From Callorhinchus milii (Eukaryota), in assembly GCF_018977255.1 (NCBI RefSeq), contig NW_024705126.1, positions 1 through 64,000 on the forward strand: a stretch of DNA of 64,000 nt. The letters run 5' to 3'. The notes beneath the pieces are model-generated. The model saw only the letters and a list, made by a program, of their open reading frames with translations. It ran no database searches and was not told the origin of the DNA. Position 1 is the first letter of the stretch. Each line of letters begins with the position of its first letter. The position numbers were made by a program, and so were the translations under genes. Below are positions 351 to 48,426 of this stretch, one piece after another.

Positions 351-1333
351 ATGGAGAACGGCAGCTCGGCATTCTACCTCTCCACGTTCGAAGCCTCCTA
401 CTCGATGCAAATGGTCATCTTTGGCCTCTGCCTGCTGCTCTATGTGATCACAGTTGTAGCCAACCTGCTGGTCTTCGTGGCGGTGCTCATGTGCCCGGAG
501 CTGCACAAGCCCATGTACTTTTTCCTGGGAAACATGGCGTTGGTCGACATCATCGGCTGCACGAGCTCCGTGCCCAAGCAGCTGCAAATCCTGCTGACGG
601 GCGACACCAAAATCCTGTACGAGTCTTGCCTCGTGCAGATGTTTTGCGTTCACGTGTTCGCCAATTTCGAGTCGCTGACGCTATCGCTCATGGCTTTTGA
701 CCGTTACGTGGCCATCTGTCACCCGCTGCGCTATCACACCATCGTCACAGCCAAGAAGACGCTCGGAGTCTTGGTGCTGATTTGGGTGATTGCCTCGCCG
801 GCCTGCATGGCACTCGCGCTGCTCGTCACGCCGCTAAACTTCAGCGATGACAATCGGAAAATCCAGGGATATTTTGTGATCACATGGGCGTCATTGCATT
901 GGCTGAATCAGACATCAAGGTTAGCAATGCATATGGGACGGCGCTAACGGTGTTGTTGTTTTTCTTACCGCTTATTTTTATTAGCTACAGCTACTTCAAG
1001 ATTTTCATTGAGTGTCGAATTAAACGATCAGCTGAGATTACCAAGCATGGTTTGAACACTTTGCTGACACACTTCTTGGCGCTCTTGATATTTTTCATCT
1101 CTACCTTGGGTTCCACATTAATTGCTCGATACATTCAAGATCTCAAAACTCCCATAGTCCGAAACGTAAGGTGCTTTTTCCAGTTCGGCATCCTTGCTAT
1201 ACCCATGGCAAATGCATTGATATATTTTTTTCGCACTAAAGAGCTAAGGAAAGGAATAATGACGTCCTGTAAACATACATTCCTTATAAGAAGACTATTC
1301 CCAAGGTTTTTGAAAGTTTCGTCCATAAGTTAA
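351..1333 (+). pseudogene. Olfactory receptor (class A GPCR) copy OR1 with one 1-bp frameshift; possibly intact if the indel is an assembly error
   Basis: ORFs 351-947 and 884-1333 join into a 7-TM protein with OR motifs LHKPMYFFL, MAFDRYVAICHPLRY, SY, LLTHF and NALIYFFRTKELR. The frameshift is at GGG 866-868, where the paralog has GGGG (20042-20045). Splice acceptor caccag ends at 331. Confidence 0.88.
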
Positions 1334-1657
1334 ACCCAATTTTAAGAGTCCAGCCATAAGCTCAATAACAATCTTAATTATGGAGCTTTCGTGACTGCAG
1401 GAATTTCACACTTAAACTGATATTATTGTAACTAGAGTCTAAGCTTTAGTGACTGCAAGAATTACTTTTGGTTTCTTTCGGTAAAGTCACGTAGAAAATA
1501 AAATCAAATAATAATAAAATACGACGTTTCGGTTGCAATACAAGCAACCATCATCGGGTAAGAATCTATATATATAAAATCGTGAATCTGTCTGTCTGTC
1601 TGTGTGTCTGTGTGTCGCCGGACCATACGCACTTTCATTGGACGAAATGTCAGGGAT

Positions 1658-1763
1658 TTGCGACACACGATTGGTCCGGCGGTTGCCCCTGCATTGCGAC
1701 ACACGATTGGTCCGGCGGTTTCCCCTGCATTGCGACACACGATTGGTCCGGCGGTTGCCCCTG
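1658..1763. repeat. 36-bp tandem repeat x3 inside the Helitron
   Basis: Unit ttgcgacacacgattggtccggcggttgcccctgca; it appears as RGNRRTNRVSQC repeats in the ORF track. Confidence 0.9.
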
Positions 1764-2189
1764 GCAACGGCTAGCGACGCATTCGCCATTTTTAATTCCC
1801 GTTAAAAATAGGCGCACGCATTAACACGCGACTCTGACGTTAATTCATCACAGTTTCACGTCCTCTTCAGTCCCCTCCCACCCCAATGTGTTCTATTACT
1901 GTTATAGGCTCCGTAGATAATTAAATAATAGCGATTAGACACTATTATTGTAGCGCGGGGGGGGGGGGAACGCCACCCGTACCCTGCCTCTGCCGGGTGG
2001 GAAATTTAGGCGAGGCCGGAGGCTCTGCACGCTACTAGGCCTCGACACCCACCACGCGAGTCTGAGGTAAATTCATCAAAGTTTCACGTACTCTTCACTC
2101 CCCCCCCAACACAATGTGTGCAATTTGTATTACTTTCAAACCCTACGCGCCAATAATCTATTCTTTAAATGGTGACTGTACAAATACTC

Positions 2190-2495
2190 ATTAAGCTGGG
2201 TGAGCGTACTGACAGTCTATAATGTATACTGTAGCCTGCTTATTAAATTGCCTGAGTCTACTGGCAGTCTATTATGTAGACTGTAGCCTGCTTATTAAGC
2301 TGAGTGGGTGTACTGGCAGTCTATAATGTAGACTGTAGCCTGGTTATTATAATCGATTCTTTAAATGTTCTTTGTACAAATAGTCATTAAGCTGGTTTAG
2401 CGTACTGCCCGTCTATTATGTAGACTGCAGCCTGCTTATTCAGCTGGGTGGGTGTACTGGCAGTCTATCATGTACACTGTAGCCTGCTTATTAAG
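2190..2495. repeat. ~50-bp minisatellite inside the Helitron
   Basis: About five copies of tactggcagtctattatgtagactgtagcctgcttattaag. Confidence 0.8.
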
Positions 2496-2619
2496 TAAAG
2501 TTTGTCAATTTGTAACACGTGGCCTTTCGCGACCATTAATCATAAACAACGTTATTGCCTTTCGATCGCCTTATTTATTAATGTGTTGTAACCCTCCACC
2601 ACCCAACACGGCCATTCAG

Positions 2620-2800
2620 CATTGTAGTGTCGTGGTTAGCGCGCCACGCTACGAACCCGGCGACCCGAGTTCCATTCCCACTCACGGCCACCACCGGTCA
2701 CGATTATTTGAACCGGTCCTGGGCCTCCCCTAGGTCGACTCAGCCTCAAAACGAGTAACTGCTGTGGCGTATGAACATCGCCACTGGGGAGACAAAGGCG
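2620..2800 (+). mobile_element. tRNA-derived SINE head carried in the Helitron
   Basis: A-box-like gtggttagc and B-box-like gagttccattcc; homologous to 5771-6035. Confidence 0.7.
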
Positions 2801-3129
2801 GCCTAGCGTCGTGGATCCAAGACCCGGGCGAAGCCGGGTAGTACATCTAGTGAATGATAAAACACAGACACGGAAACAACACAGCCAAACAACATGCAGA
2901 GAGAGACATACACAAACACAGCAACAACATAGGTAGACACACATGCTACGGGGAGGGTCTACTCACAACTCACACTTTACTTCTAATTTAGCAATCTTTG
3001 GGAGAACGTTAATCAACAAGGCTATGCGTTAACTGTGCGTTAATCCAAGCCTCTGTGTTGCATTGCATTACACTTCTTAATTTTACTAAAATTGTTTTAT
3101 CAAACTTTCGATTTTCTTGCTCTAAACCA

Positions 3130-3435
3130 TTGTCTCTCCTCCGGCCACTGTGGTCTGGCATTCCACACTGCTCCACTCGTTTGTCCGCCTCCGCAGTCCT
3201 CTCTCTGCCGCGGCCCGTCCCCCCGTCTCTCTATTTACGGCCTCGGCACAGAGTCGTTGTCCTTCTGTTTGTCTTGGTGTGTCTTTGTGTGTGTCTCTCT
3301 CTGCCTTTGTTGTTTCCGTGTCTGTGTTTTATCATTAATTCTTACCTGATGACGGTTGCTTGTGTTGCAACAAAAACGTCGTATTCTATTATTATTTGAT
3401 TTTCTACGTGACTTTACCGAAAGAACCAAAGATTA
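3130..3435 (+). mobile_element. Short PLE-derived element, inverted partner of 1466-2945, with a hammerhead motif whose GAAA is mutated
   Basis: CTGATGA at 3346-3352, stem ggttgc/gcaac, AAAA in place of GAAA, then cgtcgta and the shared tail ctacgtgactttaccgaaagaacc. Confidence 0.65.
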
Positions 3436-5770
3436 TACTTGTAATTTTCATTGGAAAAATACAATTCATATTTGTCGGATAATTATTAAGTTTTCATCGT
3501 ATATCGTAAAGCTTTTTTAGATATATTACTGTATTTGTAGATTGCAAATAAATTCGTAAAAAATATTTGCTGACACAGATCTTTATAAAACTGAACAATG
3601 AATATTAGGCTGTTTTAACATTCTATGCAGCTATAGTTTAGCTGTGTAGACGAGTGGTGAGAACACCACCTAGACTTTGGCGTGTTTTTACTGCTACAGG
3701 GAATCGAGAGTTACTCGTACTACAAATATGGATGAATTGCGAATTTCTATGTTGAGAAAATGTGATGTACTTGTCGCAGACATTATAGACGTTGATCAGT
3801 ATGGTCACATTAGGGTTTACCATCTTTTGCATGCTCATCTGGACACAATGTTGGGTAATTATTTTAGGCCGAGGTAACCTAGAAGCAGCACCATACACCT
3901 ATATCAGCTTAAATTGATCATTTCGGTGTTAAAGAATCTCCCCATTTTAAACGTCTGATGTCGCTTACGTATGCTTGCATGTATTGGTAGAATAACGATT
4001 GAACAATTATTTAAAAGTGCCTTTGAAATGAATCGATCTCACTGTTGTTGAATGTTTAAAAATTAAATAAATATGCTCATGGACAAGCATTGGAAATACA
4101 TTTTCTTCAGCCGGTTAAACGTGTGTTGGACATTAGAAATAAAGATACGAGGCGCTGTAGATCGATGGCAATTGCAACGTATTTTGAAATACAATAAATG
4201 TAAACAAACCTGTATTTCACACTTAGCAGGCCTGCATCAGGCAGCCGTTAGTCATGTGGCTGTTGTGCAGAACCAGGTTACTCAAGAGCACCCCCCAAAA
4301 AATATGCAGTCAACATGGAAAGAGGTAATGGGATGAGGTCATTGAAAGCCCAAAGTGGAGGTGGGTGAAATTTTTTTCTGCTTGACATGAGGTATGTATT
4401 TTGAACTTCATTCGCACGATATGTAGCCAACCGTGCTACTCGGATGTTCGGGAAATGATGCCGGAGCGAGAAAGCAGATGCAGCTTTGCTTCTTGCAACC
4501 CAAACTGGCAGCATTTCGTGGGCATCTTGTTCAGCAGGGGCTGAATAAGCACGAGTTCAATAACTTTTTCACGGTTCATTGTGCGCATGGGAAATATCTA
4601 ACAAACTGGACTGAGCTGATGACGCTCATGCTAGTATCAGGTAAATCTCCTAGCGAAGTCAAACAAAATCTCCAACGATTTTTATTTAATTCAACATCAA
4701 TTATTATCAACACTAAAATTGCTCCTAAATGCTGAAAAAGTGAAAATCATGGTATTTTCCTTAAACAAAATCCAGTTTCATTATCTTCACCTATTACTGA
4801 TATCATAAACAACATAATTGAGTGCTTCATATACTTGGGTTGACTAATTTATTCAAAACCGACATTCGGACCCCATATTTGTCATCTTAAAAATAATAAA
4901 ATGAAATATATGTTGATCTTTCTCTTTTTTTCTCCTTATATATAAAAGTCTCCACGCGCGCTTGCGAGGGATTTGGCTCTCGGATGGTGGGGTTTAAGAA
5001 CGAAATAATTTGTCAGCCGCACGCCCTAAGCCCCGTGGTGGGAATAGGCTATTCTGTTTTCACGTCCGTAAACTTTAAAGTCGTTTAATTAACTAATTCG
5101 TGGCATTCTTATTTTAATTATTTACTTATTGCGCAACATTGACCGTAACAACTCAAGACAATTGCCTGGGGGGGGCGGGCGGACCCTGCCAAGTGATGCG
5201 CGTTCGCTCCAGCTCACGGGAGACATTTTATTTTACGCGTTTAACATAAAATAAATATACATATCACGCTGCCGATTTCTCTTCACAGTGTCATGTCCTC
5301 TTCCCCCCACCCCAATGCGTGCAGTTACTGCTATAAAGTCCTTAGATATTGATTTAATAGTATTAAAGCGCTTACATAGTATTATTCTGGCGAGGGCGGC
5401 GGGATGATGGGGGGGGGGGTAACGGCCCAGCCCGCAGCCTGCCAATGTCTCACCTCCTCCGGCTTGCCAATCTAGGCGAGGCCGCGGGCTCTGCACAGGA
5501 CGAGGCTTCACCACGCCAATGTAAAGTACAATTTTATTGCATCTTTCGCTAAGAACTCACGTTTATTGTTTACTATTATTAAACAAATAAGTTTACAAAT
5601 ATTACAATGATAATGTTTGTGTGCACATAACAACTCTGCTTCATTCTTTACTATTTTGAAACTAATAAGTTGCCTAATATTACAATTATAATGTTCGTGT
5701 GCAGAAACTACATGTGTGTGCCTAAAGTTCATGTCTGTGTGTGTGAGTCCATATGTGTTTGTGTGCGTGT

Positions 5771-6035
5771 GGGGAGCGGTAGTGTAGCGGTTAGCGCGCT
5801 GCGCTATGAACCTGCCGACCTGGGTTCGATTCCCGCTCACGGCCAACACCAGTGACGATTATCTGAACCGGTCCTGGTTCTCCCCTAGGTCGACTCGGCC
5901 TCAATTGAGTACCTGGTGCGGTATGTAAACATCGCCACTGGAGAGACAAAGGCGGTCGGGCGTGGTGCTGGCCACCCACCCCCTCATGTGCCGTTCCGGC
6001 CTTCATAGGTGCTCGCTAACAGCTCTTGCCTCTAC
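5771..6035 (+). mobile_element. tRNA-derived SINE
   Basis: A box gtagcggttagc and B box ggttcgattcc; the tRNA-like head continues into a non-tRNA body. Confidence 0.78.
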
Positions 6036-6039
6036 AGTC

Positions 6040-6815
6040 TGTCACATGCTACGTGGGGGATCTTTTGTTTGTGTGCGTGTAAGTCCATGGGTTTCTATGT
6101 GTGTGGGTCCATGTCTGTGTGTAAGTCCATGTGTGTGTCTGTCTTTTTCAAACGGACAACGCCCCGTGTGTGTGTGTACGTACAAGTGTTTGTGTGTCAG
6201 TCCATTTGTGTGCGTATCAGTCGCTGTGTGTGTGTTAGTCCACATATGTGTGTAAGTCCATATGTGTGTTTCACTCGATTTGTGTGTGTGTGTAAGTGAA
6301 TGTGTGTGTGTGAGTCGATGTGTGTGCATATGCTCCATCTGAATGTGTAAGTCAATGTGTCTATGTGTGTCAGTCGATTTGTGTGTTAATCCATGTGTGT
6401 CTATCAAAATTACTTGTCTGTGTGTCACAGTCCATATGTCTATGTGTGTGTAGTGCAATGTGTGTGTCAGTTTATGTATGTGTGTAAAAGTCTATGTGTA
6501 TGTGTCTTAGTCGATATGTGTGTGTAAGTACATGTGTGTTTACGTCAATGTGTGTGTGTGAGTTGCTGTATGTGTGTACGTTGATATATGTGTGTGTAAC
6601 TCCATGTGTGTGTATCTAAAGTGCATGGTGCATGTCTATGCATGTGTGCGTCCATATGTGTGTGTAAGTCCATGTGTTTGTGTGTGTGAGTCCATATGTC
6701 TGTGTGTGTCAGTCCATGGGTGTGTGTGTTAGTCGCTTTGTGTGCGTGGCTCCATGTCAGTCAGTGTAAGTCCATTTCTTTGCGTGTCTGTAGGTCCATG
6801 TGTGCGTGTGAGTGA
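6040..6815. repeat. Degenerate (TG)n-rich minisatellite
   Basis: Many gtgtgtgt-aagtccat variants; an expanded version is at about 24190-25145. Confidence 0.9.
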
Positions 6816-6825
6816 ATGTACGCGC

Positions 6826-7555
6826 TTTATTGACCTGCTCAAGGCCTATGATACCATCAGCAGGCCTGGCCTCTGGGTTGTTGTTCTTCATGCTTTTGGA
6901 GTCCCTCAAACTTTGCTCACGATCCTTAAGGACCGTCATGATGGTGAGCGGCCCCGCGTCAAACTACGTGGCCGCCAGTCAGAGCCATTCCCTCTACATC
7001 TTGGGGTGTGACAGGGATGTCCTCTGCCTCCACATTATTTTACATATCTTTTGACCACGTATATCGTGAAGCCTTCAATGGCTGTACCTGACGAATTACT
7101 ATATGGTACAGATACAATGGGAGGCTGATCGATGCCCGGGTGCGGTCAAGGGATGGCTCCCTATTGCTCAACCATGTTATGTATGCCGATGCTCTGGTGA
7201 TTGCTGCTCACTCAGTGGAGGAGTTGGAGGCACTGCTGCTGAACCTGGAGCTTGCCACTAAGAGGGTGGGGTCTTACCATAAGCCCCACCAAAACTAAGT
7301 ACCTGCCTGGGTATTTTGTACATCGAACAATCCACCCCCACAACTTACAATTGGTGATGTGGCAGTTGTGGAGAGATTGCCGAGATTCCCGTACCTGGCA
7401 GTGTGCTCATGACCGGCTCCGGTTTAACAGCAGAGGTCTCACTCCAAATTAGTCGATCGCCATTATCTTTTCATTGGCTGCGTTATACTGTGTGGAAGCT
7501 ACCTGGTTTCTCGCTCCGCATGAAGCTCCAGGTCTTCTCGGCCACAGTAATTCTA
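6826..7555 (+). mobile_element. Degraded RTE-clade LINE reverse transcriptase fragment
   Basis: Motifs FIDLLKAYDTISRPGLW, GV*QGCPL, YADAL and FPYLGS across shifted frames. Confidence 0.8.
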
Positions 7556-8097
7556 GCGATCCATCCTGGGTTTAACCATATATATGTGTGTGCGTCTAAG
7601 TCGATGTGTTTCTATGTGTGTGGGTCCATGTCTGTGTGTAAATCCATGTGTGTGTCTGTCTTTTTCACCCGAGCAACGCCGGGTACTTACCGCTAGTACT
7701 TAGATAATGCATTCATCCCACTGTCACATTAAAGAAACCTAATGCGTCCATCTAATTGCCTTTTAACTATCCCAAGACCAAGAATTGCTGTTGCAGCACC
7801 AACGTTTTGGAACAACCTTGTTTTCTCACTTAACATAAAAAAGCTTCCTTTAAACATATATTTTGAAGCAGAAGATTAGTACTAGATTTTGTCATTTGTA
7901 AATTTAATCCTTAACATCACAGACAGTTATAACCTAAACTGGTTAATGACATCCTTCCAATGATTGCTCAGTTTTTACCCATCTTCTCGGTTGAAATTGT
8001 CTGTGTTTATATATCTAGATGGCTTCATGAATGAATCTTTGTTGATAGCCAGTGGGTTTGCAGAGTACCTTCGTCTTGGCAAAATCAATTTCGTGTG

Positions 8098-8493
8098 TGC
8101 CCACAAAAAGATTTCCAAAATCATGAGCAAACACAAGATCCAGGTACGATTCAACACAGTACATAACATTCGTGATTTGGTTGACATGATATCACGTGAC
8201 CGGACGATACTGGAAGGGGGCCACTGTTGGACGGGGGCCGTGGGGCGGTCACGTGGTTCCGAGGGGCTCTTGGGAACCTTCGAGAAGGAGCTCGAGAGGC
8301 CTGGAAGGTTGGCGGGTCTAAGGGCGGAGCCAGCCCCAGCCCGGGAGCATATAATGAGGGCTCCGTCAGGAGCTCGAGGTCGCAGGCTTGCGTTGTGGCC
8401 GAAACGTTGTGAGAATTGTATTTTATTATGTTTTATTTTTATCATTTTATTATTCCCCTTCTACGTGACTTTACTGAAAGAACCAAGAAGAAC
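8098..8493 (+). mobile_element. Internally deleted Penelope-like element fragment
   Basis: KKISKIMSKHKIQVRFNTVHNIRDL matches the ORF at 34672. It ends with the 3' half of the hammerhead (gttgtggccGAAAcgtt) and the shared tail. Confidence 0.7.
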
Positions 8494-8499
8494 TAGAAT

Positions 8500-9433
8500 G
8501 CTCTTCGCTATGTCCAACACCACCATCCAGAGTCCGGCTTTCTAAACGTGAAAAACTTTGTCAACCACAACGACTATATCATGTTCAAAAACTAATTTTC
8601 AATAGAATATGATTATGCTCCATCAATTTTTGGAAATCTGGATGACAAACGGAACATTCTTGAGATTGGCTTCAAGTTGCTGAATGGTTTTCAGTAGCTG
8701 CTCAATCATCATTGTGCTATAATTTTGATAGCAATCTGCAAATGCTATGTAATGTTCCAGAATGGTGACACATTTCATTTTGTGATTGCCATTCTTGTGG
8801 AGTAAAGGGAGCACCATCAGTGAACGAACCTGCTTTGTCTTCAAGTGTGATACCATCAATTAACTATTATAGTTTTGCAAGGGAGCAGTTGGTGGAAGCA
8901 AGAATGCAGTGTACACTTTGGATTTCATTGAGGTCCAGCCCAAAAATTACATAATTCGAACCCCAATAGTTTACAGTAGACGTAATGAACAGACGAGCGC
9001 TGCCAGAACAGGATCAGCTGTTGATACTTTGCCTGTTAGGACTTCAGTTTTGTTGCCAATCAATGGCCATGAGCCAAAAGAAGATGCAGTGCTACAAGAA
9101 GTTCCTCAAAGTGACGCAACCTTAACGAGATCAAGCACAGCACTACGGATAACATTGTCAATGAGGCACATGAGTTGAAGGCCGAAGAGTTGTCCTGGTT
9201 CTATCGCTCTACAAATGGCCAAAATGGATTGAATGAAAATCGTCTGGTAAATATCATGCCACTGAACTATTTCCAAAATCGAATACTTGGCAGGAACCAT
9301 CGGTTTCAGCAAAACAATTACGTCTGCTATGCTCTCTCCATGTATGAGTTCTACAGGGTCAAGTCAAATATTTCGGTATGCACCAGAAGGATTAATCAAT
9401 ACTGCAATATGCGAGAGGATGTTCTTTTACATG
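8500..9433 (+). mobile_element. Degraded Helitron RepHel N-terminal fragment
   Basis: EELSWFY...GQNGLNENRLVNI.PLNYFQNRILG.NHRFQ.NNY..YALSMYEFYRVKSNISVC resembles the region preceding the Rep domain in Helitron RepHel proteins. A PIF1 remnant lies beyond the Gypsy insertion in copy B. Confidence 0.6.
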
Positions 9434-10367
9434 TGTTGAGGTGTGAAGAACGACGCGAAGGCAAGTTGTGTAGGGGCTAACGCCAACTGATTATTATGGG
9501 CTTACGCCTAACTGTTTATTATGGGGTTACGCCTATCTTGGGGAAAGGGTTAACACAACTGTGGGTTAAGCTAATCTCCCCAGGGGAAAGGGTACTGGGA
9601 ATTCCCTATGCCTACCCGGCTTTCAGGCTCTTCCCTCAGCACTGACCGAGGGTTCAGCCAACTCGGCCAGCCGGGTAAAGTAGCCCCCTAGCCTGGCGCT
9701 ATTTCTCCCTTACCCTGGGTCCCTACTCCCCCACCCCTCACGATCATGGCTCCCGGTGAAGACCCCTAACATGTCACGCATTTGCTTCCTCATCACCCTA
9801 CCGGCAGGTCTGGCTGACGTCACTTCCTTTCATGGCGAGTGTGACATGACGTCACCACTCTACTCCTCAACATCACCCCCCGCCCCCCCCCGGGAAAAAA
9901 ACCCAGCCAACCCGGCTGCAACTACTCCGTGACCGGCCCCCCCCCTTCCCCCTGGCGGGAAGTCACGATGACAACGAACGCAAGTAACCCCTGAGCGTAG
10001 AAGCTTGACCGACCGCTAGAACAAACACAAATACAACATTAAGGTAGGCCGGTACAAGACAATGTCTGGCCATAGACACCACCCAGCCCTGCAAGCGGTG
10101 GTGACGGTGGGATGGAAGAGGCTGGCTCCACTGTCCGTCAGCGTACGCGCCCGCCCCGCGAGCGCGTGCCCGCCGCCGGGCCGCTTCCACGTGTGGCGTC
10201 AGCCGCTGGAGCCGGCGATGCACTATCCCGCCGGCGTAGGGCCACTGCTCCCTGTGGCGTCTGCCTCCGTAACCGGCGGTGTTCCGGGAGGAGACTGGGC
10301 CTCCACGGGGACCTCCTCTGGCAGGCCCGCAAACGGCGGTATTAACGGCGGTAGCTCTGTAGGTATA
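9434..10367 (-). mobile_element. 3' LTR (9434-9872) and 3' internal remnant of the older Gypsy element
   Basis: The LTR is bounded by the inverted repeat TGTTGAGG...CCTCAACA and followed by the PPT complement tcaccccccgcccccc. Near-identical to 27858-28785. Confidence 0.8.
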
Positions 10368-12413
10368 CAGTGAGGGAAAAAAGTATTTGATCCCCTGCTG
10401 ATTTAGTACGTTTGCCCACTGACAAAGAAATGATCAATCTATAGTTTTAATGGTAGGTTTATTTGAACAGTGAGATACAGAATAACAACAAAAAAATCCA
10501 GAAAAACGCATGTCAATAATTTTATAAATTGATTTAAATTTTAATGGGGGAAATAAGTATTTGACCCCTTTTCAATCAGAAAGATGTATGGCTCCCAGGT
10601 GTCTTTAATATAGGTAACGAGCTGAGATTAGGAGCACACTCTTTAAGGGAGTGCTCCTAATCTCAGCTTGTTACCTGTATAAAAGACACCTGTTCACAGA
10701 AGCAATCAATCAATCAGATTCCAAACTCTCCACCATGGCCAAGACCAAAGAGCTCTCCAACGATGCCAGGGACAAGATTGTAGACCTACACAAGGCTGGA
10801 ATGGGCTACAAGACCATCGACAAGCAGCTTGGTGAGAAGGTGACAACATGATAATTGGTTTTTTTACCCTTCTATCTGGCAACAAAACTGACACCTTTTT
10901 ACAAAGAGTCATGTTTGCATAGACCGCAATACCAGCAGTCATAATACAAACAAAAGAACATAACTCTGATAATGTATGCACTGTCCTTGAAGTTGATTGG
11001 TCCACACCCCCGAGACAGCTTTCCTTAGAGCCTAGTCTCACATGGTGTTGGACCAGATGACGCCAACACCATGTGAGACTAGGCTAAGGAAAGCTGTCTT
11101 GGGTGTGGACCAATCAACTTCAAGGACAGTGCATACATTATCAGAGTTATGTTCTTTTGTTTGTATTATGACTGCAGGTATTGCGGTCTATGCAAACATG
11201 ACTCCTTGTAAAAAGGTGTCAGTTTTGTTGCCAGATAGAAGGGTAAAAAAAAACAATTATCATATTTTTACTGGCAAATGAGGTTCCCATAGTGAAGGTG
11301 ACAACAGTTGGTGCGATTATTCGCAAATGGAAGAAACACAAAATAACTGTCAATCTCCCTCGGCCTGGGACTCCATGCAAGATCTCACCTCGTGGAGTTG
11401 CAATGATCATGAGAACGGTGAGGAATCAGCCCAGAACTACACGGGAGGATCTTGTCAATGATCTCAAGGCAGCTGGGACCATAGTCACCAAGAAAACAGT
11501 TGGTAACACACTACGCCCTGAAGGACTGAAATCCTGCAGTGCCCGCAAGGTCCCCCTGCTCAAGAAAGCACATATACATGCCCGTCTGAAGTTTGCCAAT
11601 GAACATCTGAATGATTCAGAGGACAACTGGGTGAAAGTGTTGTGGTCAGATGAGACCAAAATGGAGCTCTTTGGCATCAACTCAACTCGCCGTGTTTGGA
11701 GGAGGAGGAATGCTGCCTATGACCCCAAGAACACCATCTCCACCGTCAAACATGGAGGTGGAAACATTATGCTTTGGGGGTGTTTTTCTGCTAAGGGGAC
11801 AGGACAACTTCACCGCATCAAAGGGACGATGGACGGGGCCATGTACCGTCAAATCTTGGGTGAGAACCTCCTTCCCTCAGCCAGGGCATTGAAAATGGGT
11901 CGTGGATGGGTATTCCAGCATGACAATGACCCAAAACACACGGCCAAGGCAACAAAGGAGTGGCTCAAGAAGAAGCACATTAAGGTCCTGGAGTGGCCTA
12001 GCCAGTCTCCAGACCTTAATCCCATAGAAAATATGTGGAGGGAGCTGAAGGTTCGAGTTGCCAAACGTCAGCCTCGAAACCTTAATGACTTGGAGAAGAT
12101 CTGCAAAGAGGAGTGAGATGTGTGCAAACATGGTGGCCAACTTCAAGAAACGTCTGACCTCTGTGATTGCCAACAAGGGTTTTGCCACCAAGTACTAAGT
12201 AATGTTTTGCAGAGGGGTCAAATACTTATTTCCCTCATTATTATGCCAATCAAATAATAAAGTTTTGACATGCGTTTTTCTGGATTTTGTTGTTGTTATT
12301 TTGTCTCTCACTGTTCAAATAAACCTACCATTAAAATTATAGACTGCTCATTTCTTTGTCAGTGGGCAAACGTACAAAATCAGCAGGGGATCAAATATTT
12401 TTTTCCCTCACTG
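10368..12413 (+). mobile_element. Tc1/mariner DD34E transposon copy 1, disrupted
   Basis: TA|CAGTGAGGG...CCCTCACTG|TA with ~200-bp IR/DR-type TIRs. The transposase is split by a 445-bp insert and has a small C-terminal deletion with a premature stop. Confidence 0.95.
10849..11293. other. Fold-back (palindromic) insertion with a 13-bp target-site duplication
   Basis: Arms 10848-11051 and 11063-11263, an 11-bp spacer and a 30-bp unpaired tail. Flanked by gaaggtgacaaca at 10836-10848 and 11294-11306. Confidence 0.9.
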
Positions 12414-12479
12414 TATGTGTGTCGAACTTCTTTCGTACAGTACGTAGTCAACCGTGCTAATCGGAGCTGCGGGGGATAG

Positions 12480-12780
12480 GACAAGACACTTAACACAAAA
12501 ATCAGTTGTAAAGAAATGCGATTTAAATCTAAATTTAACAGTGCATAGCCACAGTGGCTTCCAAATATCAGACGGAAGAGCGTTCCAGACGGCCGCCGAA
12601 GCGCATCTGAAAGCGCGCAACGCGGTGACCTCCTTTGTTGGACGGTTAGCCAGAAGCCGCTGTTGCAAAGATGATGATGGTTGATGCTCCTTGACGAGAT
12701 CAGCAAATGTGTTGTGGTTCATTTGTGGCAAGCACTTTGTGTGTAATGAGTGTACATTGCACCTAATCGATGCTCAGTAA
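12480..12780 (-). mobile_element. L2/CR1-type LINE 3' end fragment
   Basis: Minus-strand translation RAFRCASAAVWNALPSDIW...FKSHFF matches the typical L2 ORF2 C-terminus. Confidence 0.6.
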
Positions 12781-12840
12781 CGGTACTGTCGGGGTGAACA
12801 CAGCCGCAAGAGGATTATGAAAAACGGCCTCCCTCTAGCC

Positions 12841-12900
12841 CAGGGGTCGACAACCCGCGGCTCAGCAGCCACATACGGCTCTTTAAGGGCTGTTTCGTGA
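12841..12900 (+). mobile_element. Truncated hAT (Charlie-like) 5' end
   Basis: ctctagcc|CAGGGGTCGACAACCCGCGGCTC; no matching right end found. Confidence 0.45.
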
Positions 12901-13107
12901 AGTTTTCTATTAAAGGACCGTCTCGTATTCACATGCATTGAAATATTGAGGTTTTTTTTTACCGAATTCGAACTAATTCATCTTCTCGTTCTCCTGGTTG
13001 CCGACCCATGCTCTAGCCTGTCTGCCCATGCTCCCATTTCTAACGCTTTCTTACAACTTTCCATACCCCCCCTACATACTCACCTTCATCCACCGCGCCG
13101 TCCCTCG

Positions 13108-13174
13108 CCATCCATTGTCATGTGACCATCCATTGTCACGTTACCATCCATTGTCACTTAACCATCCATTATCA
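13108..13174. repeat. 18-bp tandem repeat x~4
   Basis: Unit ccatccattgtcacgtta. Confidence 0.85.
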
Positions 13175-14799
13175 ACTTCCCCGCCGATCCGTGACCGCAA
13201 CTCCTCACGACTTCACAACCCATTACTCCACTCTCACCACCAATGGATTTCGCTGCACTGCCGTACCGTAAAAGCCCCCTCGCACCGACATAATAATAAT
13301 ATACCAGGCGTGCATGCGTGGCACATGGTGTCAAGAGTCGGAAAAGAATCCACCTCCCCCCCCCACTCTATTATAATATTAATCAGGATACTACAAACTG
13401 CATCCCCAAGCCAGAATTGTTGACGAGAGTTCAACACTTCCCCGAGCAGGCGAACACGCTACCACAGGCCATGTCCTCTCCCGCCGTGATCTTGGCGAGA
13501 AACCAACATCACATTCACAGCGGTGAAGGTGCCGCCAATCCGCGAGGCAGGCAGAAACGGGCTAAAGTAAATCAAGATTAAAGTAAAAGAGTTACTTTTT
13601 GCGTACATGAGCTGAGGTTCGAGCTTGAATACCAAATTAAAAGAAACATACCTGAAAGAAATCTCCGGGACAATTTGTTGTGCACGCGTTGACACCTGAA
13701 TTAAATTATTTTCTTCATTTTTAAATAATGAATGTGTAGCCACCGGACTGGACATAGGCTCTACAAGTTGGGAAGTGTTACACATCCCACGGTGAGCAAT
13801 TGCACGGTGAGAGTGTACTCCTTGGTGATGGTGTGCGCTGTACATGGGGAGCGGTGAGCGCCGTTGGTTCGAGCTCGGATTCCCGTGTTCTTATGGGCCA
13901 GCAACCCTTTAGAGCTTCCTGCAATCGAACGTAAATCTGCCTAATCGTCAGTTAGATTGTCGTCTACAGTTGATCATTAACAATTATCTGAGACCGCGCA
14001 ATAATCCAACTTCCAACATTTTCCGGAGGTCCCAGGCCGATCCGGCGAAACCGGCAAAACCGTTTCGAAGGCCGCAACCAATCCGGTGATCGGCGCCATG
14101 TGCGTGACAAAAGACTAGGTGTCCTTGATTTTGGTGTTAAATATGATATATACAGTACATTATACACTACATACAAATGAAACAAAGAAAATACTGCACG
14201 TATGTACATCACCCCATGCAGAGTCTTCGAGATTGCAGTGGTAAGTACGGCACAGTAAATACGGTAACTTTTTAAAGTAGGATATTTATTTTTGTCTATG
14301 TATATGTTTATTATGCCATTTGATTTCGTAAACAAATATAAACACCCCTACAATGTACAAGAATGTGCAAAAATAAGATATTTGAAATTATTACGTGAAA
14401 ATCCGGCATCCCCTCGCTCCCAAAGCCGCCAGATAAACGTAACAGTAATGTTTAGTTAACATTATGATAGTGGTATTGGCGGTGATTATTTGAAATGTTA
14501 AATATCATGAGGCACAAGATAATGTTGGCACGATAATGCTGTTACAATTGCGTATAACCAGTGCACCTCCGATTAGCATGATTGGCTGTGTACGGTATGA
14601 AAGAAGTTCAACATGCCTTAGACACGAGTATGCACATGGCCTTAAGTTAGCCTTGTTTTACAGTCTTGTTATATGTTATGATTGAATTGCAGTAATTCTG
14701 TGAGCGAATTCAATGGCATGATTATGCAAAAATTTCTGACGGTAATGCCTACTGGTGTTTTGATACACCGTTTGGTTTCAGACCCCACAGGGTTGATTC

Positions 14800-17185
14800 A
14801 ATTGAGTAGCTGTCTAGTACCACAGATATTGTAAAAAAACGTTTCTCATATCTGAGTCAAATGTCTATATATGACCAAAAGGCATGAAGGTACATCTGAA
14901 CCGTGTGAGGAGGGCATCTAGGGCAGTCTGGAGAGGCGTCTATGAACTTGGCTTTTTTCTCATTGGTCAAATAGGTGCCGTGCATAAATTTGAATTGGAT
15001 GAGATTTAGTGGTAGCGATTTTGGGCCAGAGAAAGGGGCCCGCCAGATTTGGATCCATTTACGCTGGGGATATCTTGGCCCAGATGTTTATTCCAGAGTT
15101 TTCTAGTGGTAGTTCTAGTCTGAAATCCCTCGCCGTCCACGAGGCAGTATGCCTCCGCTAGTCTATATTTGACTTTCCGTGTCTCTAACCAGTCTATTAT
15201 CACGCATACTGAATGGCCAAAGTTCTTGTCTGGGGTTTTGGTGATGACGTCCTTTATCTGTAGGTTACTAAATAAATGTGTCTGGGAATGTTGTATCTTG
15301 CTTGTAGCTGTTCTAGAGGATAACAAGTTGCCTTCTTCGGACAGAGGTCACCAACTTTTCCAGTCCTGCCACTTTCCAGCTGGGACAACTTATCTCCTTT
15401 CCCAATTTTCAACGGAGAGTTATCCTATAGCAGGGACAATCTATGAAAGGGCGTTGGGAGGGGATATTTTTGTCCCTACATATCCCTAGTGGAGAGGAAA
15501 CTGTCCACACCGATTTGATGCTCAGGGGCATATCTTTGGTCCATGAGAGGGAATTCTTATAAAGGGACCATGGACTCACAGACCCCTCCTCCCACCTTTT
15601 ACAGTATTTGAACAGGTCAGGGAGAGCCATGCTACTTGCCTTCGCAAGGAGGGTAAGGGAGTGATAAAATATATCCGCGCGAGTTTACAGTTCCAGATGA
15701 AGGAAATATGTGAGTGGAGTTTTTTTTAAAGAAGCGTCTTGGCATCTAGGAAGGAACCATTCGTAAGTGGCGTAGGGGTTTTGGGAGAGCCATCATTTTA
15801 ACCAGATGAGCTCTGTTGTGGAGAGAAAGGGGCACGAGTAAGGTGACAATCTCCTGTAGCAAGGAGGGGCATTCTATTGAAGAGCGATGTTAGAGACGAG
15901 GAGATTGTCACTCCCTGGTATTTGATGTGGGTTGGGCACCACTTCAAAGGGGCATCAAACCCTCTGGGGTTTCGGGGAGGTAAGTAACAGGGGCGTTTGT
16001 TCCAATTTAGCTGCGTTTAGCTTGTACCCCGACGCTCTCCCGTACCTCCCCCCACTAGAGCCATAATGGCGGGGATTAAAGTCTTTGGATCCTTAAAGTT
16101 GATGAGGACATCATCGGTGTACAAGTAAATTGTATTCTCCACTGCTCCACAACTTACCCCTGATATTGTTAGCGACTCTGGATACCCACAGTGAAGGGCT
16201 CCAAGGCCAGAGTAAATAATAGTGGGGGAAGGGGGAAACCTGCCTCATGTCTTCGCTTTGGCTGAAAAATTGGGGATGCCAAGCCATTCGTGACCAGCAT
16301 AGCTGATGGGTTAGCATGTAATAGTCTGTATATGTCAGTGAATGAAGAAGGGATGCCACCTGTATCCATAACCCGGAATAGGAAGGTCCTCTCCACCCTG
16401 TCAAAAGCCTTTTCATCATCTAGGATAAGGGCATAGACAGATAGATTGTCATTTGTGGGTATTTTACTGTATTGACCAGGGCCTTCGCGTAGTTGGCCAA
16501 TTCTCTGTTCCTAAGTAGTCCCGTCTGCGCTTCGACAATGGCATCGGAAAGGCCCTTTCCATGAAATTGCTAGATCTTGGAGAGGAGTTTGTAGTCCGTG
16601 CTAAAAAGTGAGATGGGGCTGTAGTTACCTAATACCTCCGCTGGAGTGTCCAATTTATACGAGTGAAATATGAGGATATATCCGGCTCACTGACGTATCA
16701 CAACTCGTCATGGTGATTGGCTCTGCCGGTCCTGGTTTACAGCCAATGGGAGGAAGCCTGGGGGCACGGCCCTGACATGATGGAAAGGTGACAGCTATAA
16801 GGATTGGTTCTGCTGGTTTTGGCCACAGCCAATGGGAAGAATAGTTAGGGGCGTGGTCCCGGGAGCTGACGAGGGAGCCTAGAAGATTCCATACAGGCTA
16901 ACGAGAATTGGCGGAAACGTACCACGTGACCCGGGTATTAAATAGGGGTGGAGACGAACGACACGTGGGGAGAACGGGAATGAACAGAAGAAGGGGGCCA
17001 CGCGGGAGCGGGGCTCCGAGTTGCCACGTGGCAGTGCGTCTCTCTCTCTATCTGTCCCTCTCACGCTGCCTATCAGCAGCGTGAAGTAAAATTTAATATA
17101 AGTTGAATAAAAGACGGATTCCAGAAGTCGCCTCAACGAGCTTTATTACACGAGACTGAGATCCTGGCTTCATTCTAGGTTAAAT
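14800..17185 (-). mobile_element. Degraded L1-clade LINE ORF2, interrupted by a solo LTR
   Basis: Minus-strand motifs NYSPISLFSTDYKLL, LDDEKAFDRV, PLPPLLFTLALEPF and LYTDDVL with many stops; left boundary approximate. Confidence 0.8.
16664..17150 (+). mobile_element. Solo LTR
   Basis: TGAAATA...TATTACA termini and a 4-bp TSD cgag (16660-16663, 17151-17154). Contains repeated CCAAT boxes, TATA-like tattaaata and AATAAA; the LINE frame rejoins across it. Confidence 0.85.
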
Positions 17186-17865
17186 CGAGATTTTAAAGTG
17201 CATGTGGGAGGAAACTGGAGCACTCAGAGATAACTCACACGTGCAAAGGAGCAACACTCTAACCCATACAGATAGAAGAAATGGGAATCCACAATTTCTG
17301 TACTGCATTTCTTTCTAAAGCCACGGTAGGCAGCTTGACGGGGGCGAGAAAGGAGTTTCACAACTAACAATCACATCACATTCCAAGCTGACGCCTGCTT
17401 AACTTTTCCCAGAATTGGAAAAGATCTGGTGGCATTCCAGGTGACGTTTTTATTTAAATGGTGAAGTATAGTTAAACAATCACCATAACTGGCGTGGCAT
17501 GAAGAGGATTTCATCCAGCCGTGAATTGACAAAGGGTTGTAATTTTTATTCAATTTCAGAAAGCAATATTTAACAACAAAAATGCTTTATTTTACTATTA
17601 TGATTTATGATCAATAGCATTTAAGGGTAACGCATTTGGTTGCATATAAATTAAAAGTGAATTAACACTGAATGGCTTGGTTTTCTGGATTGTAATGCAT
17701 CCATATACCACGGTCGTCCCTTTGCTGATTTTACAGACACTCGCAACATGTAGAGTCAAACTTTATAAACAGATTCGGTCATGTGTGTGAACCAGTCATT
17801 AATCATAGCTGTATTCATTCAGATTTTTGGAAACATTGATTAAATCCCAAAATCACTCCCAACGT

Positions 17866-18184
17866 GCCTATGAGAAATTCCCGAGAATGCATCCAACTCA
17901 TAACTCCTTGGAAACGAACGAAGCAGTGGTGAGCTTGTGATAGTGCTTGGATGAGTGACCACCGCACACAAAACAGATGCGAAGGGCTGCGGTGGGGCTA
18001 CGTTGCCTGCAGAGCGCAGTGCAGAAAAATACACGGTTGTACAATCGTCTGCTTCAACGCCTAAACTCTCTGCCTTCCCGCAACCCGTGCTGACCAGCTG
18101 GTCAGCGAGGTCAAAAAACTCCACGGTGACTCACAAGGTGTGGGAAAGGCCCTCATCCAGCAGTGGAATGTCAACAGTGGCTGA
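17866..18184 (+). mobile_element. 5S rRNA-derived SINE-like element, degenerate
   Basis: 5S-like head 17866-17988 (tagtgcttggatgagtgacc) and tail ccctcatccagcagtggaatg; paralogous to 36692-37004. Confidence 0.6.
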
Positions 18185-18339
18185 GAGTGCGCCTAATTAA
18201 TCAACCTTCGATCGTGTTAAAAAAATCAACTGATGTGAAATATCCGTGGCAACCCAAGTCATTTTCAACCTAATTGGCTGAGCGCCACCACGCCTGACTG
18301 CAGAGTATTCCCTTGTAATTTGAAGGCGCCTGGCCACAA

Positions 18340-18481
18340 CCCCTCCATGTGAACGTTCGTAATGAGCACGGAACCACGAGAGCGTTATTGGACACGTGAT
18401 ACCCAAAACGTATAAAAGAGGGGGTTGGCGCGTGGCGCACTGAGCTTTCTGCTGCAGACATCCAGTGGCACCACGGTGAGT
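18340..18481 (+). promoter_or_regulatory. Putative OR2 promoter and short non-coding exon 1
   Basis: TAATGA at 18360, ATTGG at 18387, CACGTG at 18393, TATAAAAG at 18411 and donor acg|GTGAGT at 18476. Acceptor caccAG ends at 19507, 19 nt before the ATG. The block is conserved upstream of OR3. Confidence 0.7.
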
Positions 18482-19526
18482 TTATACACCTGGGCTTGGG
18501 GGGTGTTTAATTCGCACTCTGTGTCACACTCGCTCGCCTCCTTCTAAGCTAAACGTTACAGATTTTGTAATTAAGTTTGCGTTTTTACGTTGCAATAAAA
18601 TGCGATGTCACGGCTTGAAAATACGTATCCAAAACAACGTCTGATTTTACGTGAAATGTACTATATTACTTATAAAATATATTCATAATATGCGTAATTA
18701 TGGAAAATGTCAGAAACTCACTTCGAGAAATGCATGTTCAATGCATCATTGTCCATTTAATCAGATTTGAATAAGCGCTTCATTTTTTGGTTTGTGAAAT
18801 TCACCGCCGTGAAGCCTTATCAAGTAGAATAAAAACCATTTGGATTGGCAAAGTTTCTGCATGAGACTACATATCAAAATTCTGACGGTTAGTAAATTGA
18901 CTTAATACAATTAAGGTACACACACCCTTACTCGGCATAATCCTCATCATTATGAATGATCCATGCACTGCTGAATGAACGACTTTGCAAGCCGTTTTCA
19001 AATCTAACAGTCTGATGTCGAAATTTATTTAGCTCTTGCACCTGAGCCAATTTTCATCAATCCATCTTTTCAGTGGACATGACGTCTCTAACCTGCGTCG
19101 GTTATTCAGTCCAAGCGTTCCTCTATCTTGCTGTGATACCGAGCAAACGCCTCCTTCCTTTGTTTCTCATCCATGTCTAGCTACGTTGCTTTTCAGAAAT
19201 TATTTATTTTTCCGTGAGCACTCCAAACCTTTGCTTGCTCTGTCCCCCACTTTATTTAATCGTTTTGATTCCAATTTGTCTTCATTACGTGAACAAGGCT
19301 AATATACCGTGTTGTCTTATAACTCTAGAGGGCATTTGGCCTACTCTTCCAAACTAACCAAGCAGGAGTATCCACACTTTACCCCAACATAACGCAACCT
19401 GAAAATATTGTAAAAAAAACCATAGCTTTCATATTAAACATCCCTGCCATCTGAGCTTTCTAATACAGTATATATTTTTTTTTATGTGAATATAATTCCA
19501 TCACCAGTTGTCGTTCGGCGTCGGCA

Positions 19527-20509
19527 ATGGAGAACGGCAGCTCGGCATTCTACCTCTCCACGTTCGAAGCCTCGTACTCCGTGCAGATGGTCATCTTTGG
19601 CCTCTGCCTGCTGCTCTATGTAATCACAGTTGTAGCCAACCTGCTGGTCTTCGTGGCGGTGCTCATGTGCCCGGAGCTGCACAAGCCCATGTACTTTTTC
19701 CTGGGAAACATGGCGTTGGCCGACATCATCGGCTGCACCAGCTCCGTGCCCAAGCAGCTGCAAATCCTGCTGACGGGCGACACCAAAATCCTGTACGAGT
19801 CTTGCCTCGTGCAGATCTTTTACGTTCACGTGTCCGGCAATCTCGAGTCGCTGACGCTATCGGCCATGGCTTTTGACCGTTACGTGGCCATCTGTCACCC
19901 GCTGCGCTACCACACCATCGTCACAGCCAAGAAGACGCTCGGAGTCTTGGTGCTGATTTGGGTGATTGCCACGCCGGCTTGCATGGCACTCGCGCTGCTC
20001 GTCACGCGGCTAAACTTCAGCGATGACAATCGGAAAATCCAGGGGATATTTTGTGATCACATGGGCGTCGTTGTATTGGCTGAATCAGACATCAAGGTTA
20101 ACAATGCATATGGGACGGCGCTAACGGTGTTGTTGTTTGTCTTACCGCTTATTTTTATTAGCTACAGTTACGTAAATATTTTCATTGAGTGTCGAATTAA
20201 ACGATCAGCTGAGATTACCAAGCATGGTTTGAACACTTTGCTGACACACTTCTTGGCGCTATTGATATTTTTCATCACTATCTTGGGTTCCACATTCATT
20301 CCTCGATACATTAAAGATTTAAAACTCCCATAGTCCGAAACGTAAGGTGCTTTATCCAGTTCGGCATCCTTGCTATACCCATGGCAAATGCATTGATATA
20401 TTTTTTTCGCACTAAAGAGCTAAGGAAAGGAATAATGACGTCCTGTAAACATACATTCCTTATAAGAAGACTATTCCCAAGGTTTTTGAAAGTTTCGTCC
20501 ATAAGTTAA
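19527..20509 (+). pseudogene. Olfactory receptor copy OR2 with one 1-bp frameshift; possibly intact
   Basis: A 268-aa ORF, then a 1-bp loss at gatttaaaactccc (20316-20329; OR1 has gatctcaaaactccc). The remaining C-terminus matches OR1 to TAA at 20507-20509. Confidence 0.88.
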
Positions 20510-20635
20510 ACCCAATTTTAAGAGTCAAGCCATAAGCTCAATAACAGTTAATCATACAACTGCCTTTGCTAGAATGTTAGGTAGAACTGATATTATTGTA
20601 ACTAGAGTCTAAGCTTTCGTGACTGCAAGAATTAC

Positions 20636-20830
20636 TTTTGGTTTCTTTCGGTAAAGTCACGTAGAAAATAAAATCAAATAATAATAGAATACGACGTTTC
20701 GGTTGCAATACAAGCAACCATCATCGGGTAAGAATGAATGATAAAACACAGACACGGAAACAACACAGGCAAACAACATGCAGAGAGAGACATACACAAA
20801 CACAGCAACAACATAGGTAGACACAAATGC
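20636..20830 (-). mobile_element. Short PLE-derived element, uninterrupted paralog of 1466-2945
   Basis: Same degenerate hammerhead and tail; contains the empty Helitron site. Confidence 0.65.
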
Positions 20831-21009
20831 TACTGGGAGGGTCTACTCACAACTCACACTTTACTTCTAATTTAGCAATCTTTGGGAGAACGTTAATCAA
20901 CAAGTCTATGCGTTAACTGTGCGTTAACCAAGCGTCTGTGTTGCATTGCATTACACTTCTTAATTTTACTAAAATTGTTTTCTCAAACTTCGATTTTCTT
21001 GCTCTAAAC

Positions 21010-21317
21010 CATTGTCTCTCCTCCGGCCACTGTGGTCTGGCATTCCACACTGCTCCACTCGTTTGTCCGCCTCCGCAGTCCTCTCTCTGCCGCGGCCCGT
21101 TCCCCCGTCTCTCTATTTACGGCCTCGGCACAGAGTCGTTGTCCTTCTGTTTGTCTTGGTGTGTCTTTGTGTGTGTCTCTCTCTGCCTTTGTTGTTTCCG
21201 TGTCTGTGTTTTATCATTAAATCTTACCTGATGACGGTTGCTTGTGTTGCAACAAAAACGTCGTATTCTATTATTATTTGATTTTCTACGTGACTTTACC
21301 GAAAGAACCAAAGATTA
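21010..21317 (+). mobile_element. Short PLE-derived element, paralog of 3130-3435
   Basis: CTGATGA at 21228-21234 and the shared tail; inverted relative to 20636-20830. Confidence 0.65.
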
Positions 21318-22645
21318 TACTTGTAATTTCATTGGAAAAATACAATTCATATTTGTCGGATAATTATTAAGTTTTCATCGTATATCGTAAAGCTTTTTTA
21401 GATATATTACTGTATTTGTAGATTGCAAATAAATTCGTAAAAAATATTTGCTGACACAGATCTTTATAAAACTGAACAATGAATATTCGACTGTTTTAAC
21501 ATTCTATGCAGCTATAGTTTAGCTGTGTAGACGAGTGGTGAGAACACCACCTAGACTTTGGCGTGTTTTTACTGCTACAGGGAATCGAGAGTTACTCGTA
21601 CTACAAATATGGATGAATTGCGAATTTCTATGTTGAGAAAATGTGATGTACTTGTCGCAGACATTATAGACGTTGATCAGTATGGTCACTTTAGGGTTTA
21701 CCATCTTTTGCATGCTCATCTGGACACACTGTTGGGTAATTATTTTAGGCCGAGGTAACCTAGAAGCAGCACCATACACCTATATCAGCTTAAATGGATC
21801 ATTTCGGTGTTAAAGAATCTCCCCATTTTAAACGTCTGATGTCGCTTACGTATGCTTGCATGTATTGGTAGAATAACGATTGAACAATTATATTAAAAGT
21901 GCCTTTGAAATGAATCGGTCTCACAGTTGTTGAATTTTTTAAAATAAAATAAAAATGCTCAGGGACAAGCATTGGAAATACATTTTCTTCAGCCGGTTAA
22001 ACATGTGTTGTACATTAGAAATGAAGATACGAGGCGCTGTAGATCGATGGCAATTGCAACGTATTTTGAAAAACAATAAATGTAAACAAACCTGTATTTC
22101 ACACTTAGCAGCCCTGCATCGAGCAGCCATTAGTCATGTGGCTGTTGTGAAGAACCAGGTTACTCAAGAGCACCCCCCCAAAAAAATATGCAGTCAACAT
22201 GGAAAGAGGTAATGGATGAGGTCATTGAAAGCCCAAAGTGGAGGTGGGTGAAATATTGATCTGCTTTACATGAGGTATGTATTTTGAACTTCATTCGCAC
22301 CATATGTAGCCAACCGTGCTACTCGGATGTTCGGGAAATGATGCAGGTGATACAGAGCAGATGCAGCTTTGCTTCTTGCAACCCAAACTGGCAGCATTTC
22401 GTGGGTATCTTGTCCAGCAGGGGCTGAATAAGCACGAGTTCAACAACTTTTTCACGGTTCATTGTGCGCATGGGAAATATCTAACAAACTGGACTGAGCT
22501 GATGACGCTCATGCTAGTATCAGGTAAATCTCCTAGCGAAGTCAAACAAAATCTCCAACGATTTTTATTTAATTCAACATCAATTATTATCAACACTAAA
22601 ATTGCTCCTAAATGCTGAAAAAGTGAAAATCATGGTATTTTCCTC

Positions 22646-26917: not shown

Positions 26918-26919
26918 TA

Positions 26920-48416: not shown

Positions 48417-48426
48417 CTTTAGAAGA

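What the first reader, a model, noticed from the sequence alone, without database searches (positions are those of the whole stretch)
10368..12413. A Tc1 element sits at the breakpoint of the OR tandem duplication
Seen: Tc1 copies 1 and 2 share the same left flank (Gypsy sequence ...ctctgtaggtaTA), but only copy 2 continues into Gypsy on the right; copy 1 continues into unrelated DNA leading to OR2. Copy 1 also differs from copy 2 more (about 15 changes in the first ~280 bp) than the adjacent flanks do (about 6 in ~370 bp). Inference: copy 1 is a junction element made by ectopic recombination or transposase-mediated rearrangement between two Tc1 copies, giving a concrete mechanism for OR gene birth.
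Basis: partly seen in the sequence, partly recalled or inferred. Interest (0 to 1): 0.7.

Follow-up and report, generated by a model that had tools for sequence, protein, structure and literature searches.

The report
Tc1 junction in lamprey receptor repeat
Two neighbouring copies of a lamprey smell-receptor gene region meet exactly at a Tc1 transposon, likely through unequal recombination between two transposon copies; this is a known route to gene copy-number change, and the DNA is lamprey sequence that likely contaminates another animal's assembly.

Summary
The flank switch is real. Tc1 copies 1 and 2 share one Gypsy insertion site on the left; copy 2 continues into Gypsy, copy 1 into the tail of an old retroposon.

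The divergence argument fails. The 15 changes in 280 bp are there, but ends are about four times more variable than interiors across 29 other copies, copy 1's right end is equally divergent, and copy 2 is too close to the family majority to serve as a clock. Copies 1 and 2 alone (2 of 101) share two rare left-end variants, so copy 1's left end descends from copy 2's insertion.

Best reading (0.55): unequal exchange between the Gypsy Tc1 and an older Tc1 in the retroposon tail. 'Gene birth' is not shown: OR1 and OR2 differ at 22 of 325 residues, OR1 is 3 residues from a Lethenteron reissneri protein, and both are frameshifted here.

The window starts its contig, so the upstream test is impossible. 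The contig is lamprey DNA whose repeats are almost absent from the assembly's large scaffolds, likely contamination. A mis-join stays possible (0.13).

The parts
1..12415 (+). Unit 1 of the direct repeat (OR1 to Tc1 copy 1); left edge is the contig start, not a breakpoint
351..1333 (+). OR1, lamprey olfactory receptor, 1-bp frameshift near 865; 3 residues from L. reissneri P0025
9495..10367 (-). Gypsy-type sequence forming the shared left flank, ending in the TA target (left limit = end of match to L062)
10368..12413 (+). Tc1 copy 1, junction element; 38 substitutions from the family majority, TIRs differ at 17 of about 200 positions
10849..11293 (.). Palindromic mobile repeat inserted in copy 1, 13-bp target duplication (10836-10848 and 11294-11306)
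12414..12752 (-). Old 5'-truncated retroposon fragment; its (CATA)n-type tail supplies the TA next to copy 1
12414..19168 (+). Spacer upstream of OR2; no second copy found in G000; 71-72% homologue upstream of OR3 at 36362-38185
19169..30390 (+). Unit 2 of the direct repeat (OR2 to Tc1 copy 2)
19527..20509 (+). OR2, 1-bp frameshift near 20318; 22 of 325 residues differ from OR1
28786..30388 (+). Tc1 copy 2: TA target duplication in Gypsy, open 339-aa DD34E transposase frame, 4 substitutions from the family majority
30389..33800 (-). Rest of the degenerate Gypsy element, absent after copy 1 (right limit approximate)
38753..39730 (+). OR3, intact older paralog, 93% to an L. reissneri protein
41505..49828 (+). 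Tc1 copy 3, independent insertion, split by an LTR element (42292-49018, LTRs 98.6% alike, 4-bp target duplication)

Best explanation
Tc1 copy 1 joins the Gypsy flank of copy 2 to the tail of an old retroposon upstream of OR2, and is likely a hybrid made by unequal homologous exchange between two same-orientation Tc1 copies that bracketed an OR unit. Shown: the flank switch; copy 2 as the true Gypsy insertion; common descent of the left ends of copies 1 and 2. Inferred: an older Tc1 sat in the retroposon tail; the exchange point lies right of element position 244 and probably left of 1528; the exchange put an OR1-type unit in front of an OR2-type unit. Because these two receptor types are older than the flanks next to the Tc1, the event would have joined or reshuffled existing variants in a copy-number-variable lamprey array, not split one gene into two new ones.
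For: Empty Gypsy site in L062 and L063. Variants 109T plus 244T occur together only in copies 1 and 2, 2 of 101 motif matches. Copy 2's 2 private right-end substitutions and its 3-bp deletion are absent from copy 1, the direction a hybrid predicts. 3 of 29 other Tc1 copies sit in the tail of the same retroposon family by their printed flanks (L010, L021, L030), so an independent insertion there is ordinary. Runs X1 and X3 (organism A) each hold a 268-letter contig laid on 12393-12660 with 10 differences, while other copies of that retroposon in G000 are at most 82% alike; X1's OR contig differs from OR2 at 29 sites where OR1 differs at 28, so a Tc1 end appears to precede an OR1-like unit there. 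OR1/2-type genes look multi-copy elsewhere: three accessions for one L. reissneri protein, two different proteins each in Lampetra fluviatilis and L. planeri. A mis-join through a repeat with at least 101 copies would seldom pick the local neighbour (inference).
Against: No upstream Tc1 or spacer paralog was found in G000. The organism-A contig has only 21 Tc1 letters plus TA, under the tool's 31-letter rule for bridging. The hybrid signal rests on 2 shared against 2-3 unshared sites. Copy 1 has 15 private changes in the left 280 bp and copy 2 none (p=6e-5); this needs homogenisation of copy 2, which is inferred from its deficit (4 seen, 13 expected, p=0.004) but not shown. L026 also carries both variants and was missed by the exact pattern. 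The database accessions were not checked at DNA level and could include isoforms or haplotypes.
Confidence: 0.55

Rival explanations
1. No gene was gained at this junction: an older, longer duplication or array existed, and a later Tc1-to-Tc1 deletion or a conversion-like replacement removed the right part of Gypsy and what followed it in unit 1.
For: OR1/OR2 divergence (4.1% over 1-1565) exceeds flank divergence (1.8% over 2851-9999) and is patchy, 0-6% per 300 bp; paralog pairs 18-19 residues apart exist in two Lampetra species.
Against: Needs at least two events; the junction sequence is the same as under the best explanation, so nothing here favours it specifically.
Confidence: 0.18
2. Transposase-made junction (hybrid element insertion): the right end of the Gypsy Tc1 on one chromatid inserted into the TA of the retroposon tail, duplicating the interval with a single parent element.
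For: Precise element end joined to a TA in a favoured target; left-end identity by descent with copy 2.
Against: No right-end variant is shared between copies 1 and 2. In X1 and X3 the Tc1-end/retroposon contig is unbranched and, in X1, as deep as the OR contig (119 against 116), with no empty-site piece among the rows shown (most rows were not shown).
Confidence: 0.14
3. Assembly artefact: two haplotypes of one OR locus were joined through Tc1 overlap in thinly covered foreign DNA.
For: Unit 1 runs to the contig start; the contig looks like contaminant DNA; both ORs carry 1-bp deletions absent from relatives; diverged spacer types coexist in run X19; false receptor gains are documented (43 of 267 platypus V1R genes, PMC9516828, passages).
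Against: No gap between the units (only N run 50998-51027); a chance join to the one local Tc1 is unlikely and unit-1 reads would overlap unit 2 far better (inference); multi-copy OR1/2-type genes in three other lampreys; spacer types in X19 near 2:1, not 1:1, at four places picked by eye (weak, contig depth is no copy number and other rows give other ratios).
Confidence: 0.13

Closest known systems
NAHR / unequal crossing over between transposon copies (criteria in PMC3744419, passages; Kochia EPSPS duplication model, PMC6808082, abstract)
   Same: Direct duplication with a mobile element at the junction and another at the distal end.
   Different: The proximal third element could not be seen in this assembly; the duplicated genes are diverged types, not identical copies.
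Alternative transposition: P-element hybrid element insertion and maize Ac reversed-ends transposition (PMC3744419, passages)
   Same: Breakpoint exactly at an element end joined to a target site.
   Different: Those products lack an element at one breakpoint; here read contigs hint at a Tc1 at the upstream position. No reciprocal deletion seen.
Heterogeneous duplications such as mosquito ace-1 (PMC6121789, PMC5137868; search listing and abstract start only)
   Same: Two diverged variants of one locus held in tandem.
   Different: Allelic origin of OR1 and OR2 is not shown and no selection is known.
Lamprey/teleost Group 1 Tc1 (PMC3516227, passages; 6,604 copies in sea lamprey)
   Same: Young, very abundant DD34E Tc1 in lamprey DNA.
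   Different: Sequence identity to Group 1 was not tested.
False heterotype duplication (PMC9516828, passages)
   Same: Duplicate at a contig end in a receptor cluster.
   Different: No assembly gap between the copies; relatives also appear multi-copy.

Membership tests
Tc1/mariner, DD34E/Tc1 | Terminal inverted repeats and TA target duplication | tested here: met
   About 200-bp TIRs, 3 differences in copy 2; TA on both sides; empty site in L063
Tc1/mariner, DD34E/Tc1 | HTH plus DDE transposase with D34E spacing | tested here: met
   PF25787, PF01498, PF13358; D153, D243, E278, spacing 34, motifs located from recalled consensus
Lamprey/teleost Group 1 Tc1 | At least 90% identity to the Group 1 consensus | not tested
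   Consensus not available; only abundance and host agree
NAHR duplication between transposons | Element at the junction and at the distal end, same orientation | tested here: met
   Copies 1 and 2
NAHR duplication between transposons | Element at the proximal end of the first unit | tested here: inconclusive
   Beyond the contig start; not found in G000; 21-letter hint in X1 and X3
NAHR duplication between transposons | Junction element is a mosaic of both parents | tested here: inconclusive
   2 shared rare variants on the left, 0 of 2 substitutions and 0 of 1 deletion shared further right
Hybrid element insertion / alternative transposition | Breakpoint at element end plus TA target | tested here: met
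Hybrid element insertion / alternative transposition | Empty target site in the first unit; reciprocal deletion | tested here: inconclusive
   None among the rows shown; upstream DNA missing
False heterotype duplication | Half read depth over each copy | not testable with these tools
   Only contigs of other samples; no baseline outside the unit was obtained
False heterotype duplication | Assembly gap between the copies | tested here: not met
   Only N run is 50998-51027

The most novel reading that the evidence does not exclude
A horizontally acquired Tc1 family supplied the recombination points that locked two deeply diverged, trans-species OR alleles into one tandem haplotype, so that lamprey OR copy number is being built from standing alleles; and lamprey ORs like these have entered a cartilaginous-fish gene set by contamination and inflate its very small OR repertoire.
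Probability: 0.2. Interest if true: 0.6.

Novelty: new member of a known kind. Interest (0 to 1): 0.35.

Why it matters
If real, it is a sequence-level example of a young DNA transposon setting the unit boundary of a jawless-vertebrate OR array. That is useful but expected biology. Two side results matter more in practice. Divergence between Tc1 copies in this assembly is not a usable clock. And lamprey DNA likely sits in an assembly whose large scaffolds do not look like lamprey; separately, a database protein labelled Callorhinchus milii differs from an L. reissneri OR at only 7 of 328 residues. Catshark has only 2 canonical ORs and 6 OR-like genes (PMC11979771, passages), so a few foreign genes would distort counts and trees for cartilaginous fishes.

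Tried and rejected
1) Direct upstream check: impossible, the window is C385:1-64000 of a 71,323-bp contig. 2) Paralog searches in G000 with 12500-13500, 12414-12760, 17400-20500 and a copy-1 left-end motif found no second copy; weak, because only top candidates are scored in the DNA searches and G000 likely holds a small part of the lamprey genome. 3) My interim idea that copy 1 is wholly an older element with a swapped flank: dropped. 4) The idea that the palindrome is an assembly fold-back: rejected, it is a dispersed family with 10-14-bp target duplications in 7 of 7 loci examined; no hammerhead or other Rfam family reached its gathering score. 5) Fishing for the original left flank by a retroposon target duplication: none longer than 7 bp in 19 of 19 loci. 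6) Absence of copy-1 variants in read contigs: uninformative, contigs drop rare variants. 7) A depth baseline outside the repeat unit was not obtained, so copy number in X19, X1, X3 and X5 stays open; 4 of 22 listed runs were laid. 8) No LTR pair found around the Gypsy that holds copy 2. 9) Earlier scan notes: none near. 10) Eight paper searches listed no report on this locus, and none on the mislabelled OR (passages of 2 of 4 listed papers read); one search was for analogues; most subscription papers are not covered.

Full report
Setting. The window is the first 64,000 bases of G000 contig C385, 71,323 bp long. Self-comparison shows a direct repeat, 1-12415 against 19169-30390, whose left edge is the contig start. 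It holds three olfactory receptor genes and three copies of one Tc1 family. OR3 is 93% identical to a Lethenteron reissneri protein and 89% to a Petromyzon marinus protein; of 23 hits, 20 carry lamprey names, one is the window's own, one is an eel protein at 32% and one is labelled Callorhinchus milii. The DNA is lamprey.

The flanks. Copies 1 and 2 follow the same Gypsy-type sequence and TA. In 2 of 11 other Gypsy loci examined (L062, L063) the left and right flanks of copy 2 are directly contiguous; the other nine matched too patchily to tell. Copy 2 is therefore a true insertion with TA duplication. After copy 1 comes the tail end of a reverse retroposon fragment whose other 39 scored copies are 75-82% alike; its homology starts at the TA and does not extend upstream in 19 of 19 loci. 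By their printed flanks 3 of 29 other Tc1 copies sit in the tail of the same family. So the right junction looks like an ordinary Tc1 target, and the left flank belongs to a different insertion. This part of the finding stands.

The divergence argument. Copy 1 differs from copy 2 at 15 of the first 280 bases against 6 of 368 in the flank (p=0.012), at 11 of 1092 inside and at 12 of the last 213. Against the majority of 29 other copies (the best hits to copy 2, so biased to young copies), ends carry 1.56% and 1.34% substitutions and interiors 0.39%; copy 1 follows this ratio (p=0.48). Several copies have no interior change but 1-4% at an end (L015, L021, L023). Copy 2 has 4 substitutions where at least 13 are expected if it has sat there since the flanks split (p=0.004). 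I infer that repeat interiors, and copy 2 above all, were pulled toward the family majority by read correction, polishing or gene conversion. Divergence within the element is thus no guide to origin. Two rare variants are a better guide: 109T with 244T occurs in 2 of 101 exact motif matches, copies 1 and 2 (100 rows listed; L026 has both but fails the motif). Copy 1's left end descends from the Gypsy insertion. Copy 2's two right-end substitutions and 3-bp deletion are not in copy 1. That is the pattern of a hybrid, on very few sites.

The missing upstream copy. G000 gave no second spacer and no second copy-1 left end. These negatives are weak (see below). Read contigs give indirect evidence. 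In runs X1 and X3 (organism A) a 268-letter contig lies on 12393-12660 with 10 differences, covering 21 Tc1 bases, the TA and the retroposon. That is below the tool's bridging rule but fits a contig cut at a high-copy repeat. X1's OR contig differs from OR2 at 29 sites where OR1 differs at 28; X3 at 36 against 30. Run X19 holds both a window-like and a diverged spacer type, near 2:1 at four places that I picked by eye; this is only a hint of more than two copies.

Gene birth. OR1 and OR2 differ at 22 of 325 residues; 22 codons differ in amino acid and 9 silently, and changes split 14 to 14 against OR3. OR1 is 3 residues from L. reissneri P0025 and groups with it at 100/99; OR2 is 17-29 residues from the Lethenteron and Lampetra proteins (17 rows; P0003, P0009 and the more distant hits left out). 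The two types are thus older than the split from L. reissneri's copy and older than the 1.8% flank. P0025 has three accessions, and L. fluviatilis and L. planeri each have two OR1/2-type proteins, which points to a variable array. Both window genes have a 1-bp deletion that relatives lack; error or recent loss cannot be told apart.

Mechanism. Most likely, a Tc1 in the retroposon tail upstream of the OR unit and a Tc1 in Gypsy downstream recombined out of register, giving Gypsy flank, hybrid Tc1, retroposon. By the criteria in PMC3744419 (passages) NAHR needs three elements and alternative transposition lacks one; two are seen and the third is hinted. A later deletion or replacement in an existing array gives the same junction without gene gain. 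A mis-join is possible but would have to choose the local Tc1 among at least 101.

The host assembly. Of 100 listed Tc1 motif matches 1 lies on a large scaffold (C14); of 40 retroposon hits 2 do (C5); ORs of 44-47% identity lie only on small contigs, while the best hit on a large scaffold is 27%. Large scaffolds exceed 120 Mb, while the longest contigs behind the lamprey proteins are 9-15 Mb. In public runs the Tc1 is thousands of times deeper than unique DNA. I infer that C385 and many small contigs are lamprey contamination; masking of large scaffolds was not excluded. Separately, P0007, labelled C. milii, clusters with lamprey ORs and is 7 of 328 residues from L. reissneri P0037. I did not test which assembly G000 is.

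Papers seen: PMC9516828, PMC3744419, PMC8032801, PMC11979771, PMC3516227 (passages); PMC6808082 (abstract and outline); PMC6121789, PMC5137868 (listing). No supplements were read; OR gene lists in supplements could bear on the mislabelling.

Verdict. Real flank switch, known kind of event, wrong supporting argument, gene birth unproven. Interest 0.35.

Noticed in passing
window and G000 small contigs (C75 onward) against large scaffolds: Lamprey repeats and ORs are almost confined to small contigs; likely foreign DNA in the assembly.
   Followed up: partly
P0007: Protein labelled Callorhinchus milii is 7 of 328 residues from an L. reissneri OR and sits in a lamprey cluster.
   Followed up: partly
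window 10849-11293; L052-L060; C725, C438, C1500: Palindromic repeat with a short one-sided tail and 10-14-bp target duplications; one arm also forms 304-bp tandem arrays. Resembles non-autonomous Penelope-like elements (recalled); no Rfam family at gathering score.
   Followed up: partly
L010, L021, L030; window 12414: The tail of one old retroposon family is a repeated Tc1 target (3 of 29 other copies).
   Followed up: partly
L002-L030: Tc1 interiors are about four times less variable than ends, falling off with distance from the flank; possible correction or polishing artefact.
   Followed up: partly
window 41505-49828: Tc1 copy 3 is split by a young LTR element with 98.6% identical LTRs and a 4-bp target duplication.
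   Followed up: no
window 16660-17152: About 490 bp present in the window are skipped by contigs of X1 and X3, with TA between: a polymorphic insertion.
   Followed up: no
window 1565-2851 and 22646-22908: Unit-specific insertions of 1286 bp and 262 bp.
   Followed up: no
G000 C668 and C737: Runs of Tc1 left ends with the same private variants every 3.5-9.8 kb (most 3.5-4.5 kb): a Tc1-containing tandem array elsewhere.
   Followed up: no
window 10596-10692: Internal palindrome of the Tc1 5' region gives a sub-threshold match to Rfam mir-7558; probably only a hairpin.
   Followed up: no
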